Shown: positions 24,001-45,000, counted from the first letter of the stretch. The stretch is 64,000 bases of DNA from an uncultured Nitrospiraceae bacterium (GCA_963705105.1 CAVPIW010000006.1:672001-736000); one strand, 5' to 3'. Numbers: made by a program.

Positions 24001-27000
24001 TCAGACTGTTGGCAAATTCAAGCACCACAACGGGGAGGTCGAGTGCGCGGAGACTCGGGAAGAGCCTTTCTCCCAGCGCTACCAGATACCTCAGTGCCGC
24101 GATATCCGTGGAGATCATTGCTTCAAGGCCGGGCCGCTGCACCTTCACGGCCACGTGACGCCCGTCCTGCATTGTCGCCTCATGCACCTGGGCGATGGTG
24201 GCGGCGGCGAGCGGGGTTTCGCTGAATGATGCGAACAATTCCGTCAACGGTGCGCCCAGTTCGGCTTCGACCGTCGCGCGCACCGCGTCAATGCCCAGCG
24301 CCGGCAACTGGTCATGCAGCAACTCCAACTCATCGATGTAGGCGTCCGGTAGCATGTCGCGCCGCATCGCGAGCACTTGTCCGAATTTGAGAAAGGTCAG
24401 CCCCAGTTCCTCGAAGGTTTCCCGTACCTCTTTCGGCGGCGGCCAATGTCTTTTGCCGCGCAGGGCGCCCAGGAACTTGTGTCGGGCGAGCACGCGCAGG
24501 ATTTGCATAAGTCGCGGCGCCGCTCTCAGCAGGCTGCTTTTCTCCGGGTCGATCCTTAAAGCCATGCGCTCCTCCAAAAGTTAAGGGTAGAATAATTCCG
24601 GAAACATGTTATCCTTTTTGTGTCCCCGACTTTGCCCGGCTATTCCCCCTTTATTTATTGTAATATATTTTCTTGCAGTTACAAATCTGCACCGAGCAGG
24701 CTGCAGAAAGAGAACAAAATGGCACAGCCGGAAAATCCGCCTGCTCCATTTCGCAAGTCCCGGATGCTGTTGCGGCTACTTGTCATCCGGTCTTATCTTT
24801 GGTACATTTAATTTATGGTTCTCTCGCCACGGTCGTGATTGCCCTTCTCAGTGCAGAAGATGTGGCAATAATCTTTTTTGTTCGGTGCACAGGTTATTGC
24901 AGAACATCACAAAAGCTGAAACCCTTTTAGGCTTCGACCCAAGGGTTTCGCTCTCGGAGGGAGCCCAATTAACCTTTGAATGATACAAAATGCTTATGAT
25001 ATGAGAACGAGGTGATTCAATGGATATTTTTGAAAAGTGCGTACAAGCCACGGAGTATGAAACCGGATTGAAGCAAAGTGGCCACTATTTCTTTTTTCGG
25101 AGGCTCGAATCCCCGCAGGATCCTGAGGTGATGGTCAACGGGAAGAGGGTCATCATGATCGGCTCCAACAACTATCTTGGACTCACCAACCACCCCCGGG
25201 TGAAGGAAGCAGCGATCAAGGCCGTTGAAAAATATGGTAGTGGCTGTGCAGGTTCACGATTTCTAAACGGGAATCTTGAGATCCATGAAGAACTGGAAAA
25301 GAAGTTGGCCAAATTCTTGCGGAAAGAGGCTGCTCTGGTTTTCGCAACCGGCTACCAAACCAATTTGGGAGTGATCTCTGCTCTTGTGGGCCGCAACGAC
25401 GTCGCTATTATCGATATGCACGATCATGCAAGCATCATGGATGGCTGTCGCCTCTCCTTCGGCGAGGTCAAGAAATACCGGCATAACGACATGGCCGCAC
25501 TGGAAAGAGCTCTCGAAGGAACCAAGGGAAAAGACAGACTGATCATCGTCGATGGCGTCTTCAGCATGGAAGGCGATATTGCTGACCTCCCTGCCATTGT
25601 GAATCTGGCCAAGGCCTATGGGGCGAGGATCATGCTGGATGACGCCCACGGGGTCGGCGTTCTTGGAAATGGTGGACGGGGAACAGCGGAGCATTTTGAT
25701 CTGGAAAACGAAGTGGATCTTATCATGGGAACCCACAGCAAGTCCCTTGCGGCGATCGGCGGGTTTGTCGCTGGGCCATCAGATGTGATAAGTTGGATCA
25801 AACACCTTGCTCGCTCGATGATGTTCAGCGCCAGTCTCCCCCCGTCCCTGGTGGCATCGGTGAGTACCGCTTTGGACATCATTGAAGAACAGCCCGAATT
25901 AAGAGCCAGGCTTTGGAGAAATACGCACAAGATGCTGAAAGGATATAAAACGCTCGGATACGATACAGGAACGAGCGAAACCCCGATCATTCCCGTCTTT
26001 ATTAAAGACACCATGAAAACTTACGAGATGTGCAGGCTCCTCTTCGAAAACGGGGTCTTTGTCAATGCGGTCATAAGCCCTGCAGTCCCGCACGGGCAAG
26101 AACTCCTTAGGACAAGTTACATGGCGACTCATACGGAGGAACAGTTGGATAGGGTCTTGGCTGCCTTCGAAAAAGTGGGAAGACAGGTGGGAGTGATCTG
26201 ACTTGAGATTTTGAACATTTCTTCTTTAGTATTTTACAGTGAGTTTGATAGCGGAGGGAGGAGCGGTGTACACCACACTGGAAAGACTGCAGCAGCTTTT
26301 CATAGCCCGCTTTGATTACAAAATTGAAGAACTTACGGCCGCGACGACGCTCGAAAATTTAGGCCTCGATTCTCTCGATATCATCGAATTCATGTTTGAT
26401 ATCGAAAAGGAATTCAAAGTCAGAATTCCTGACCGGGAGTTTAAGGTAACAACGATACAGGACATGGTGGATGCTCTGGACAGGTTCCTCTCGGAAGAGG
26501 ACACGAAACACGATGCGGGGTCTTCGCGTCATGATTGAGTTCAATACGAATTATTTATGAAACGGAGAGTCGCCGTCACAGGACTGGGCATTATTTCCCC
26601 TTGTGGGAATACTATCGATGACTTTTCATTCAATCTCATGTCTGGCAAGTCCGGAGTCAGAAGAATCTCGTCACCCTATTCAAGCCTCCTTTCAGTAAAG
26701 ATTGCCGCTGAAGTCGATTTTAATCCCCTCGACTATTTCATTAAGAAACAAGTGTCCGGTATGGACCGTGTCAACCAATTCGCGTTAGCTGCCGTTTCTC
26801 AAGCCTGGAAAGATTCAGAGCTGTCTCTCGATGCGAAAGAGAAAGAGCGGGCGGGAGTATATATCGGTTGCAGTGTGGGAGGGGCGAATACCATAGAGGA
26901 TTTATACGATCAACTATTTAAACAGAACGCCGACCGGGTAAAACCGCTCACGGTGCTCATGGTGATGAATAGCGCTTCCGCCTCCCATATATCGATAGCG

Positions 27001-42000: not shown

Positions 42001-45000
42001 TGCAGGTCCAGGCCGACCAGATCGGTAGAATCCAGGCGGAGCTTGGAGAGCCGCTGGCGTTGAACATCATCAATGGCAACCAGATCTGTCAGCCAATGGA
42101 CGCTCTCGAAAACGATCCCGGTGGCCCCGGTGGACAGGAATGCCGCTGCCGCCTCAGGGGTGGAGACGCCTCCCCAGATGAGGATATCGAGAGGCTTCGA
42201 GGGTGTGCGCAGCATTTCCTTGACCACCGAATAGAGAGCCATGGTCGTCTCACCGCTCACGAATCCGGAGGCCTCGCATCCTTTCAGGACGATGCGCCCG
42301 ATACCCGAGTTATCCTTCAAAATCGCTGCCAGGAGATCCATGTCACCGATGATCGGAAAGCAACGGTGGTTTTCCGACAATTCCCTCAATCTCTGAAGAA
42401 AGATGGAAGAATCTCCTTGAAAAAACTGGGGATGGCATTCTACCCAGATGTCATGGACCCCTGTTTCTTTCAGTAACTGCCCCAAAGATGGATCCATCAA
42501 GGCAGGGACAGAAATCTTGATATCCCTGACGTGGCCGGCAGGGTCGGCCTTTCGTAAGAAAGAACGCAACCCTTCCACCCCCATCATGGAAAAATCGAAG
42601 ATGGCTCTGCTCCCTGTTCGCTGAGCCATTTGAATCACCGATGGGATAATCTCCTCAGGCCGCCAGACGAAACCGATGATAGAAACCCGATGCTCAGCCA
42701 CTATGTCAGACCTCTGCCTTTAAAGCCATACGCTCACCTTCTGCCTGATCCCGCCCTAAATCCCGGACCGTATTTGATAATCCGGGGGCAAATCATAAAG
42801 ACTTTCTGAATATGCGATATTTCTTGTATCTTTTTGCGCCCGCTTCCTCTACCAAAGAGTTGATCGATTCGTTGTCCTCCAGGGTCCAGCCCAGCTCCAG
42901 ATAATGATATTTCTTTTTTCCCCTCACGACCTCATATATGTGGTGGAAGGCTAACATGGGGAGTCCCAGTTGCCGGAACTTCTCCTTGATCCCGAACATC
43001 AACAACCGCAATCCGTTGATCTCCCGCCGATACAGGAGGAACTTCAGCACACCCAGGAGACCGATCCGCCCGTTGAGACGCTTGAGCAATGGGTTAATGT
43101 CAGGAAAGATGACGCAGAACCGCTGCGGGTTCATCCTCATAATAGATGAAGAAAACCATGTCCGGATCCACGAATTCCATGACGTTCTTTTGAATGTCCC
43201 GCATCTCATTACCGCTCAGGGGGACGAACCCCCAGTTATCAGCCCAGGCGGCATTATATATCTCCCTGATCAGAGCAAACTCAGAGTCCGCATCCTTTGG
43301 ACGAGAGAGCCTGATGCGGATACCTTTTTTTTTGGCCATCCGTTCAGCAAGATGATCCATCCACTCGGGAAGCCGGTAATCGCCATCTATCAGGAAAGCG
43401 AGCAGGTCCTTCTCTTTGGTGTAGCCGCACGATTCGACCAGCCTTGGGTAGTACGGCGGGTTGTAAGCCATCATCAAGGCAGGCGGATAATCGAATCCCT
43501 CAATGAGCAAGCCCGCCTCGTAATTGCTGGACGGGTTGAGCGGACCTCTCATGAAGGTCATCCCTTTCCGGCGAACCCACGTCTCCACGGAAGAGAAGAG
43601 GGCTGCCGCTGCCTCCGGATCGTCAACACATTCGAAGAATCCCCAACTGCCCATCTTTTCGTTGTGGAACTGGTTATAATGGCGATCTATGATGCCCGTG
43701 ATCCTTCCGACCGTCTCCGAACCACGCCGGGCCAGAAAGAGGATGCGTTCGGAAAACTCCCAGAAAGGGTGTCTGCGGGGGTCCAGCATCCGGCGAACCT
43801 CTTTCTTAAGGGGGGGGACCCAGTTGGGGTACTCGGCATAGATCCTCCATGGCAGGTCAATGAAGTCCCTTAATTCCGATCCCCCTTCCACAGCAATAAT
43901 CTCTATGCCTGCCATAGTCGTTATTATCGTGAACAAAAAATATTTGTGTCAACCTTATCGTTTCATAAGTCCGCGGGAAAGGCGGGGCGAAGATGCAGAA
44001 AAGTCTTGCTGCGGCGACACACGCCCTGCTGCATGCGAAGACGGTCATTTCGGAGGTTGCCGCACAGATCCGTTATAAAAAACCTCGCATTTGCCGCCTT
44101 GAATAAAGAGTTTTGCCTTCCTGTAAAGCTTAGAGAGCGGGCCTGCAAGGGCCTCCATCGCGCTGACCGCGCCGACCCGGGGACTGCCGAAGGGACCGCT
44201 GATGCTTTGTTTGAATTTTGCGCATCCCCTGTCATCGAGAAGCGCCACTATGACATTGTCATATCGTTCGCCGACGAGATCGAGCTTGCCTTTAAGGGCA
44301 ACACGATTATGGGGCGTCGCAAGGGCACAGTCCGTAGCGTCCGCCACACCGCCCTTGATCTTCCAGTGGGAGAGAAACTGTGTGATGGCGCCCTGACCTC
44401 CCCGGGTCTGCCCGTAAAAGTCCCCATAGCGGTACCCCTTGAGCACAGCGGTGCCGAGAGGGCCGGCGATGAAGAATGCGCCGAGGTCGATGAGATTGAA
44501 CTCCTGGCTCGTTTCATACGATGAGAGGACCTTGTCGAGGTCCATCGTATGCATGACGAGATTGTCGCCGCGGAGAGAAACAGTACCATCCATGCCGCTC
44601 ATCAGATTGCGTCTCCCTTTTTCTTTCATCGTCAGAGAAGCATAAAGATCACCCTTCCCGCCGACAACCTTTTTTATGCCGAAGGACTCCTGAAATCTTT
44701 CGAAGTCCAGCTTCGATACCTTCAGGTTGATTTTATACACGGCATCGACTTCCGATTTGTCTGCCGTGGCATCTCCCTCACCCCTTGAACCGAAGATATC
44801 CATGGTAAGGGGTGCAAGGTGGATTACTCCCCTCTCCGCTTTTATCTGACTCCTGACATTGTCGATCTTGAGGTCCCCTTTCCGTACCTCCCTGCAATCC
44901 ATGTTTCCGGTGAATGCGATATTCCCTATTATTTTTCCTGTAATAGCCACGACCGAGAGATCCCTGATAGCCAGTTTGATTTCTTTCAACTCGGTCTTTT

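What a model noticed while it worked through the whole genome (the two positions that open the first line are those of the whole stretch)
25020..43915. Ceramide-synthase gene fixed beside an ER-KS-AT-ACP-KR-DH polyketide synthase in anaerobes
A second bCerS homologue lies directly before a single-module iterative PKS/FAS (ER-KS-AT-ACP-KR-DH) and a PPTase, with a second spt, an ACP and a KS at the other end of the cluster. The bCerS-PKS-PPTase block is widespread in Desulfobacterota, Acidobacteriota and others and predicts PKS-made ceramides; here it is a recent acquisition and its reading frames are broken by single-base indels.
Evidence so far: Among the best 80 of 152 loci with this synthase, the PKS follows in 71, the PPTase in 46, a CerR-like gene is near in 22 and an spt-like gene in 8. 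Intact relatives have one 2540-2670-aa PKS with the domain order above. g01425 best hit Caulobacter bCerS 38%, g01410 best hits Spt 49-56%. Pieces here are up to 92-98% identical to deltaproteobacterial copies, and this synthase was not found in 120 class genomes.
(Added by a program. Inside this text positions count along the whole contig: contig position 672,001 is position 1 of the stretch shown here. "Call 12" and the like, gene names such as g00115 and contig names such as C1 are that model's own, and its searches are not shown. The text may have been shortened before it was handed on; [...] marks where a part breaks off. The agent that wrote the report below was given it as the finding of a first reader that could run no searches.)

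Follow-up and report, generated by a model that had tools for sequence, protein, structure and literature searches.

The report
Ceramide cluster with private fatty-acid synthase
This is a mobile gene cluster of oxygen-free sediments that joins relatives of the bacterial ceramide-making enzymes to their own giant fatty-acid synthase, probably to build ceramide-type membrane lipids with an unusually long chain; the broken reading frames in this copy are most likely assembly errors.

Summary
A bCerS-family tandem GNAT (43915-42793) precedes a one-module ER-KS-AT-ACP-KR-DH synthase, a PPTase and an ABC exporter; spt, ACP, FabF and a Cys/His lipoprotein close the cluster. The synthase follows the GNAT in 75 of 80 related loci; the other five run out of DNA. 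In one family sample spt occurs in 14 of 19 genomes with the GNAT and 4 of 132 without. Sister synthases often carry an acyl reductase instead, so the neighbouring gene probably off-loads the chain. Best reading (inferred, about 0.55): the synthase makes a long saturated chain that this bCerS paralogue transfers as the N-acyl chain of a ceramide. The frameshifts look like consensus errors, not decay: no nonsense codons, dN/dS 0.27, 9 of 9 insertions stack two natural alleles. The copy is a recent import, but the synthase is not absent from the class (5 of 250). This scan noted the cluster before in six other genomes. No product has been shown.

The parts
25020..26201 (+). Serine palmitoyltransferase-like alpha-oxoamine synthase (cluster-specific clade), intact, 393 aa
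   Evidence: Best PDB hit Sphingobacterium-type SPT 3a2b, E 2.8e-128, far above Kbl/BioF; NF047600 555 bits, cut-off 640; 79-91% identical copies 13-24 kb from the GNAT in relatives
26239..26538 (+). Stand-alone acyl carrier protein, probably the SPT's acyl donor
   Evidence: PF00550 E 2.6e-13; spt-ACP-FabF grouping conserved in L035, L087-L089, L091, L092, L094, L096
26557..27795 (+). FabF-like type II ketosynthase
   Evidence: NF005589 487 bits over cut-off 387; TIGR03150 491 against 493.75; 85-92% identical copies beside spt in relatives
27825..28643 (+). Predicted lipoprotein of a permuted NlpC/P60-like Cys/His family (invariant H95, C194); accessory, function inferred as lipid tailoring
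   Evidence: Family in 39 of 80 loci, usually between GNAT and synthase; alignment; TseH 6v98 Z 9.2, rmsd 3.6, 132 aligned, YiiX Z 6.6; model pLDDT only 64.6
28667..30520 (-). Membrane EptA/sulfatase-superfamily transferase, candidate head-group enzyme
   Evidence: PF00884 E 1.2e-18; weak EptA-family hits far under cut-off; in 13 of 36 extended loci
30427..31425 (-). Epimerase_2/GT-B-like protein; a compensated -1/-2 deletion pair near 30515-30545
   Evidence: PF02350 E 7e-4; in 11 of 36 extended loci; DNA alignment
31495..32610 (-). ABC-2 permease
   Evidence: PF12698 E 1.4e-36; in 34 of 36 extended loci
32607..33560 (-). ABC ATPase
   Evidence: PF00005 E 2.9e-30; in 34 of 36 extended loci
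33557..34366 (-). 4'-phosphopantetheinyl transferase; indels in the 3' tail
   Evidence: PF01648 E 2.3e-11; 36 of 36 extended loci; indels
34385..34766 (.). Host-specific dispersed repeat (about 380 bp) inserted between synthase and PPTase; inverted 93.8% copy at 45883-46269
   Evidence: 230 hits on 14 contigs of G000, none in loci L006-L122; relatives have a spacer of about 40 bases here
34770..42701 (-). One-module iterative reducing synthase: degenerate ER barrel + FMN-type ER, KS, AT, ACP, KR, DH; no thioesterase; 8 single-base indels (40444, 39261, 39123, 38500, 37286, 36407, 34801 extra; 36132 missing)
   Evidence: Pfam on pieces and on intact P0005; tblastn; active-site motifs conserved in about 100 intact copies; indels
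42793..43915 (-). bCerS-family tandem GNAT N-acyltransferase (synthase-linked paralogue); one extra base at about 43120
   Evidence: 39-40% to the genome's canonical bCerS; 32% to YghO; own clade, SH-aLRT 98; tandem-GNAT fold, pLDDT 79.7, best Foldseek E 1e-12
43923..43952 (-). Sigma-70-like promoter match (11 of 12) just upstream of the GNAT start
   Evidence: Consensus scan only; 12 sites found against 8.9 expected in shuffles
44045..45715 (-). AsmA-family protein, possibly part of the island (lipid transport); uncertain member
   Evidence: PF05170; near the GNAT in 6 of 80 loci; 83% DNA identity to L078

Best explanation
The region is one copy of a mobile sphingolipid-type gene cluster. Inferred steps: the PPTase primes the synthase; the synthase works iteratively as a fully reducing fatty-acid synthase and, having no thioesterase, holds a long saturated chain on its ACP; SPT condenses serine (or another small amino acid) with an ordinary acyl chain from its own ACP/FabF (or fused FAAL-ACP, or the host's supply) to give the 3-keto long-chain base; the synthase-linked bCerS paralogue transfers the synthase's chain onto that amine; a CerR-like or KDSR-like enzyme (here the host's cerR on C12) reduces the ketone; accessory enzymes decorate the lipid and the ABC-2 system exports it. 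Shown here: gene content, homologies, folds, co-occurrence. Not shown: any activity, the chain length, the product. In this genome the cluster is a recent import and most likely intact in the cell.
For: GNAT directly before the synthase in 75 of 80 loci, all 5 others cut short, and in 11 of 11 close synthases found synthase-first. Oxoamine synthase in the cluster in 26 of 50 genomes, cluster-type spt on another contig in 6, another spt elsewhere in 11, none found in 7 (hand tally). The partner is exchangeable: four separate clades, one fused to FAAL-ACP in 6 loci, so it often brings its own acyl supply. In 9 loci a canonical bCerS and this paralogue sit in one cerR-spt cluster, so the paralogue is not redundant. 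Family sample of 151 genomes: GNAT 19, synthase 20 (all 19 shared), spt in 14 of 19 against 4 of 132. G213 and G189 hold one co-directional operon GNAT-synthase-PPTase-ABC-rSAM-GT-like-spt-SDR, the SDR's best NCBIfam hit (L102 copy) being KDSR. Sister synthases without the GNAT carry an acyl reductase in 5 genomes. Precedent: ArsA, listed with the order ER-KS-MAT-ACP-KR, hands ACP-bound chains directly to a partner enzyme.
Against: No biochemical or lipid data. 7 of 50 genomes with the GNAT gave no spt hit (several are small or fragmented). The spt scores under NCBIfam's equivalog cut-off (555 against 640). The Desulfobacteraceae-type operon has spt with no ACP or FAAL of its own, which fits the synthase feeding SPT. 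The synthase architecture is not specific to ceramides: 10 of 13 more distant synthase loci have no bCerS-like gene in the DNA fetched. Co-occurrence counts are not independent (one mobile cluster, related genomes). This copy lacks cerR, PAP2, the B12 radical SAM and the FemAB-like gene that many relatives carry. Sequence kinship with ArsA itself was not tested.
Confidence: 0.55

Rival explanations
1. SgaAB-like logic: the synthase supplies the long chain of the sphingoid base through SPT, and the GNAT adds an ordinary fatty acid from acyl-CoA.
For: Shown for Pseudomonas PfSgaAB, which makes C24-C28 sphinganines and has a KDSR homologue (PMC12134224). The G213/G189 operon has spt plus a KDSR-like SDR and no separate ACP.
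Against: The fixed neighbour of the synthase is the GNAT, not spt. spt comes in four clades, is fused to FAAL-ACP in 6 loci, and is missing from the cluster in 11 of 50 genomes that have another spt elsewhere. A second bCerS would be redundant in the 9 loci that already hold the canonical one.
Confidence: 0.22
2. The GNAT releases the chain onto an amine that is not a sphingoid base (amino acid, amino sugar, polyamine), and spt is a frequent but dispensable passenger making a second lipid.
For: 7 of 50 genomes gave no spt. The fold matches general tandem GNATs, best a glucosamine N-acetyltransferase. The paralogue is only about 40% identical to canonical bCerS.
Against: Four unrelated oxoamine synthases and two kinds of reductase have been recruited to the block; in the family sample spt tracks the block (14 of 19 against 4 of 132); about 55 columns are invariant between paralogue and canonical bCerS.
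Confidence: 0.13
3. Separate axis: in this genome the cluster is a decaying pseudogene island and the breaks are real mutations.
For: The breaks are local: 0 frameshifts in 137.6 kb of 120 core genes. A host repeat has entered between synthase and PPTase; several accessory genes are missing; one compensated deletion pair exists.
Against: No nonsense codon among 43 private codon changes (24 silent, 19 missense); dN/dS 0.27, as in intact copies 0.24-0.31. 9 of 9 coding +1 insertions are two alleles seen in relatives written in tandem (null 20%). Loci with CAV/CAW accessions show 61 frame changes in 192 kb, others 4 in 282 kb.
Confidence: 0.15

Closest known systems
Bacterial ceramide pathway Spt / bCerS (CC_1154, E. 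coli YghO) / CerR with AcpR and AasR (PMC11087976, PMC9386255; passages read)
   Same: SPT-family enzyme, a bCerS-family GNAT (32% to YghO), a dedicated ACP beside spt, CerR-like reductase in many relatives.
   Different: A second, separate bCerS clade fixed to a 2600-aa synthase, PPTase and ABC-2 exporter; spt exchangeable; can coexist with the canonical operon.
PfSgaAB(C) of Pseudomonas fluorescens MYb115 (PMC12134224; sections 7, 8 and passages read)
   Same: Iterative type I synthase in a sphingolipid cluster with SPT and a KDSR-like reductase.
   Different: Sga makes free long-chain sphinganines and phosphoglycerol derivatives; no bacterial ceramide synthase is described in it in the parts read. 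Here the fixed partner is a bCerS. SgaA's domain order (recalled as RkpA/WcbR-like, not checked) differs.
ArsA of Azotobacter vinelandii and pfa-like secondary lipid synthases Types M-P and S (PMC3098273 section 7 and supplement rows; PMC6274091 passages)
   Same: N-terminal ER followed by KS-MAT-ACP-KR, PPTase nearby, no thioesterase; ArsA passes ACP-bound chains directly to the next enzyme (C22-26 chains for Type P).
   Different: DH fused at the C-terminus (no 'KR-DH' row in that supplement); partner is an N-acyltransferase, not a type III PKS; the D. autotrophicum Type S order is ER-KS-CLF-AT-KS-ACP3-KR, so this is not Type S.
Orphan very-long-chain 1-deoxyceramides of the Black Sea (PMC11334938; sections 19, 22 and passages read)
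   Same: Sphingoid bases C18-22 with N-acyl chains of C32-39, some sulfonated or sulfated, correlated with Desulfobacterota and/or Bacteroidota.
   Different: No gene link is made there ('polyketide' has 0 occurrences); the match to this cluster is my hypothesis only.

Membership tests
bCerS / YghO family | Full-length homology to a listed member | tested here: met
   32% over 373 aa, E 1e-68 to E. coli YghO, which PMC9386255 lists as the aca homologue of CC_1154; 39-44% to cerR-spt-linked bCerS
bCerS / YghO family | Direct alignment to Caulobacter bCerS | not tested
bCerS / YghO family | Soluble GNAT-type fold | tested here: met
   Model pLDDT 79.7; top Foldseek hits are tandem GNATs, TM about 0.6
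bCerS / YghO family | Orthology with the canonical spt-adjacent gene | tested here: not met
   Separate clade of 79 rows, SH-aLRT 98, quick tree only; coexists with the canonical gene in 9 loci and in G000
bCerS / YghO family | N-acylates a long-chain base | not testable with these tools
   Needs an assay
Bacterial ceramide pathway (Spt + bCerS + reductase) | SPT rather than Kbl/BioF/HemA | tested here: met
   Best solved relative is SPT 3a2b at 431 bits against 276-323 for Kbl/BioF-type entries; NCBIfam best model is SerpalmtaseCFB but under its cut-off
Bacterial ceramide pathway (Spt + bCerS + reductase) | CerR or KDSR available | tested here: met
   Not in this cluster copy; CerR-like epimerase on C12 beside canonical spt; reductase in 23 of 36 extended loci. 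CerR identity rests on family and position, not on alignment to Caulobacter CerR
Fully reducing iterative type I FAS/PKS | ER, KS, AT, ACP, KR, DH with catalytic motifs; no thioesterase | tested here: met
   Pfam; among 101 long copies KS His motifs 100-101, AT GHSxG 101, AT AFHS 96; KR Tyr, DH His present; DH has Glu where Asp is usual (recalled)
PfSgaAB-type cluster | PKS paired with AOS as the two-gene core | tested here: not met
   The gene fixed to the synthase is the GNAT; the AOS lies 13-24 kb away or elsewhere. SgaA sequence not compared
ArsA / pfa-like secondary lipid synthases | ER-KS-MAT-ACP-KR order | tested here: met
   Same order plus C-terminal DH
ArsA / pfa-like secondary lipid synthases | KS phylogeny with PfaA/ArsA | tested here: inconclusive
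   TIGR02813 PfaA 420 bits against cut-off 1010; ArsA sequence not available; no tree built
Permuted NlpC/P60 (TseH/YiiX-like) for the lipoprotein | Fold and His/Cys pair | tested here: inconclusive
   Z 9.2, rmsd 3.6, 132 aligned to TseH; invariant H95 and C194; Foldseek found nothing at E<=0.001; low-confidence model

The most novel reading that the evidence does not exclude
A dedicated ceramide-synthase clade acts as the chain-release enzyme of an iterative megasynthase, giving ceramides or 1-deoxyceramides with very long (C30 and more) amide-linked chains, and this mobile cluster is the missing source of the orphan C32-39 sulfonated/sulfated sphingolipids of anoxic waters; accessory modules (EptA/sulfatase-like, B12 radical SAM, FemAB-like, lysyl-transferase-like) diversify them.
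Probability: 0.3. Interest if true: 0.85.

Novelty: new variant of a known kind. Interest (0 to 1): 0.63.

Why it matters
Bacterial ceramides are thought to take their chains from ordinary fatty-acid pools; the one published synthase-linked case in the searches run (SgaAB) feeds the sphingoid base. A synthase that feeds the amide-linked chain through its own ceramide synthase would be a new wiring and a new way to release a chain from an iterative synthase. The cluster is patchy but recurrent in anaerobes (about 8 of 401 genomes with a bCerS-linked synthase in one phylum sample, 19 of 151 in one family, 5 of 250 in the host's class), and a member of the GNAT clade is on record for cultured Desulfotignum species, so the origin of the very-long-chain ceramides reported from euxinic water becomes testable. 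The window is also a clear case of polishing artefacts that mimic pseudogenes in horizontally shared DNA.

Tried and rejected
Complex prediction of the GNAT with the synthase's ACP gave no answer (score 0.01, mark 0.32): no evidence either way. PDB sequence search with the GNAT found nothing significant; Pfam and NCBIfam have no model for it. Foldseek with the lipoprotein model found nothing at E<=0.001. RNA run X15 has contigs over most of 31340-44000, but these are relatives' contigs and cannot show transcription. Identity with Type S of D. autotrophicum was considered and rejected on domain order. Genome-wide long-read error was rejected as the cause of the breaks (0 in 137.6 kb); 119 of 239 query ORFs were dropped there for low identity or coverage, and 7 stop codons inside six alignments were not followed up. 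A composite transposon made of the two inverted repeats was rejected because the conserved operon continues beyond the inner repeat. No close synthase on plasmids (best about 30% over half the length); plasmid GNAT hits are under 40%. No tRNA in the window. The careful GNAT tree did not finish; the quick tree is used. No earlier notes near this place. PMC12358690 passages added nothing.
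Full report
1. What is in the window. ORF lists and family scans give, on the minus strand, a GNAT-like gene (43915-42793), a synthase in pieces (42701 to about 34770: FabK/NMO-type ER, KS, AT, ACP, KR, DH), a PPTase, an ABC ATPase and permease, an Epimerase_2/GT-B-like gene and an EptA/sulfatase-like gene; on the plus strand spt (25020-26201), ACP, a FabF-like KS and a 272-aa predicted lipoprotein. Intact relatives of about 2500-2800 aa tile the pieces at 79-98% identity. The genome also has a canonical cerR-spt-bCerS operon on C12, so the window's GNAT is a second homologue.

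2. The GNAT. An intact copy is 32% identical over 373 aa to E. coli YghO, which PMC9386255 lists as the homologue of Caulobacter CC_1154 (passages). It is about 40% identical to spt-adjacent bCerS genes and shares about 55 invariant columns with them. It folds as a tandem GNAT. In a quick tree of 90 rows the synthase-linked copies form their own clade (SH-aLRT 98). It is therefore a paralogue of bCerS; activity is untested, and Caulobacter bCerS itself was not aligned.

3. Conservation of the block. A scan of species genomes confirmed 226 stretches and returned the best 80. The synthase starts within 1.6 kb downstream in 75; the other 5 loci end within 0-1140 bases. The reverse test, starting from the synthase, found the GNAT upstream in 11 of 11 close loci (73% identity or more), but a bCerS-like gene (52-53%) beside only 3 of 13 more distant ones; another distant paralogue in G097 also lacks it. 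In 5 genomes such sister synthases have an acyl-reductase gene nearby, mostly with a B12 radical SAM gene or a MATE transporter, and no such reductase lies in the bCerS-linked loci. The synthase family thus looks like a chain-supply module whose neighbour decides the fate of the chain (inference).

4. The sphingolipid link. I searched 50 of the 78 genomes behind the loci and fetched downstream DNA for 36 (16 chosen because spt lay on the same contig, 20 mostly because it did not). Hand tally: oxoamine synthase in the cluster in 26, cluster-type spt (79% or more) on another contig in 6, another spt elsewhere in 11, none found in 7. The partner falls into four clades: the window type with ACP and FabF; a Desulfobacteraceae type followed by an SDR whose best NCBIfam model is KDSR (308 bits, cut-off 400); the canonical cerR-spt in Geobacter-like genomes; and a FAAL-ACP-AOS fusion in 6 loci. 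Among the 36 extended loci: PPTase 36, ABC pair 34, reductase 23, B12 radical SAM 18, FemAB-like 16, lipoprotein 15, EptA/sulfatase-like 13. In an even sample of 151 genomes of one family, 19 have the GNAT, 20 the synthase (all 19 shared) and 18 an spt: 14 of the 19 against 4 of the other 132; apart from three weak hits (25-27%) no other bCerS-like gene was found there. These genomes are related, so this is association, not a statistical test. G213 and G189 carry the whole set as one co-directional operon, with a GNAT identical or nearly so to P0252, which its sources name for Desulfotignum. The window's spt is closest to a solved SPT (3a2b, E 2.8e-128) though under NCBIfam's cut-off.

5. Mechanism. 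KS, AT, KR, DH and ACP motifs are conserved in about 100 intact copies, 18 of 101 have two ACPs, and there is no thioesterase: a fully reducing iterative synthase is inferred. The order ER-KS-MAT-ACP-KR is listed for Azotobacter, Frankia and others in the supplement of PMC3098273; that paper gives C22-26 chains for the Azotobacter type, and a review states that ArsA passes ACP-bound chains directly to its partners (PMC6274091). Three facts point to the amide-linked chain as the destination: the GNAT, not spt, is the fixed neighbour; spt often has its own acyl supply or is supplied by the host; and the paralogue is kept beside a canonical bCerS in 9 loci. Against this, the Desulfobacteraceae operon has spt without its own ACP, as in SgaAB. 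I put 0.55 on the N-acyl route, 0.22 on the SgaAB-like route and 0.13 on a non-sphingoid amide.

6. The breaks. Against close relatives the window has +1 bases at 43120, 40444, 39261, 39123, 38500, 37286, 36407, 34801 and 33665, one missing base at 36132, further indels in the PPTase tail and spacers, and a compensated pair near 30515-30545. Contigs of four public runs, which are relatives and not this strain, lack most of these extra bases. Core genes of G000 show none (0 in 137.6 kb, 120 of 239 query genes kept), so the breaks are local, as decay would also predict. But there is no nonsense codon, private changes are 24 silent to 19 missense, and dN/dS is 0.27 like intact copies. At the insertion sites the window spells two natural alleles one after the other: 10 of 11 sites against 42% for random insertions in the first, loose test; 9 of 9 coding sites against 20%, or 6 of 9 against 7%, with thresholds set after seeing the data. 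Loci with CAV/CAW accessions have 61 frame changes in 192 kb (18 of 25 loci), the rest 4 in 282 kb (3 of 50). The likely cause is a consensus built from reads of several organisms that share the cluster at 90-96% (inference; about 0.85). The window's bases may thus be partly a blend.

7. Origin. DNA identity to deltaproteobacterial copies is 96% (dS 0.085). None of 60 relatives has this GNAT clade, though 53 have a canonical-type homologue. The synthase is in 5 of 250 genomes of the class, at 77-88% protein identity: patchy, and not the source of this copy. A host repeat with 230 hits in G000 and none in 117 loci sits inside the operon, which argues that the cluster really resides in this genome.

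8. Novelty. Ten full-text searches found no paper describing a bCerS tied to a type I synthase; the library lacks most subscription journals, and the original bCerS and ArsA papers were not read. Synthase-derived sphingolipids are known (PMC12134224, sections 7, 8 and passages). PMC11334938 (sections 19, 22 and passages) reports 1-deoxyceramides with C32-39 N-acyl chains, not known from any organism, correlated with Desulfobacterota and/or Bacteroidota; linking them to this cluster is my hypothesis. Six earlier notes of this scan describe the same cluster in other genomes; they are not independent support. Verdict: new variant of a known kind, interest 0.63.

Noticed in passing
window 34385-34766 and 45883-46269: A dispersed non-coding repeat of about 380 bp, mosaic, with 230 hits on 14 contigs of G000 (145 of 100 bp or more) and none in the related loci or in 400 kb of G008.
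   Followed up: partly
L180:8429-10786 (G067) and L181:7405-9729 (G069): SPT and a bCerS-family GNAT fused into one open frame of about 775-790 aa.
   Followed up: no
L207, L209, L210, L212, L217: Sister clusters: acyl reductase (NAD_binding_4) + the same synthase architecture, with PPTase, B12 radical SAM and MATE in several; candidate long-chain alcohol or ether-lipid pathway.
   Followed up: partly
L214:8707-10751: A distant synthase followed by a bCerS-like GNAT and an MprF-C-terminal (lysyl-transferase-like) gene; a candidate for the lysine-ceramides of PMC11334938.
   Followed up: no
L167:15946-16773 (G177): spt is deleted from the operon, its first few codons joined in frame to the KDSR-like SDR.
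   Followed up: no
L016 and L024 (G068): One genome holds two copies of the GNAT-synthase block on different contigs.
   Followed up: no
window 4250-16232: Minus-strand run with two caspase-domain (Peptidase_C14) genes and a 1777-aa nSTAND1/RHS-repeat gene; looks like a conflict or defence island.
   Followed up: no
window 16918-17424: 97% duplicate of 19044-19552, the 3' end of the UPF0182 gene.
   Followed up: no
window 49763-59327: Trehalose genes TreZ, GH57/DUF3536, TreY, DUF5752, TreT-like.
   Followed up: no
window 62318-63619: Ice-binding-like domain protein with DUF11 and an IPTL-CTERM-like tail.
   Followed up: no
window 42701 to about 41700: The synthase's first 340 aa look like a second, degenerate FMN barrel (GCEASGF in place of GYEAGGH), conserved in 80 of 101 copies.
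   Followed up: partly
L047:5135-8774: Cytidylyltransferase, DegT aminotransferase and NeuB genes lie just upstream of cerR-GNAT, hinting at a nonulosonic-acid head group in that variant.
   Followed up: no
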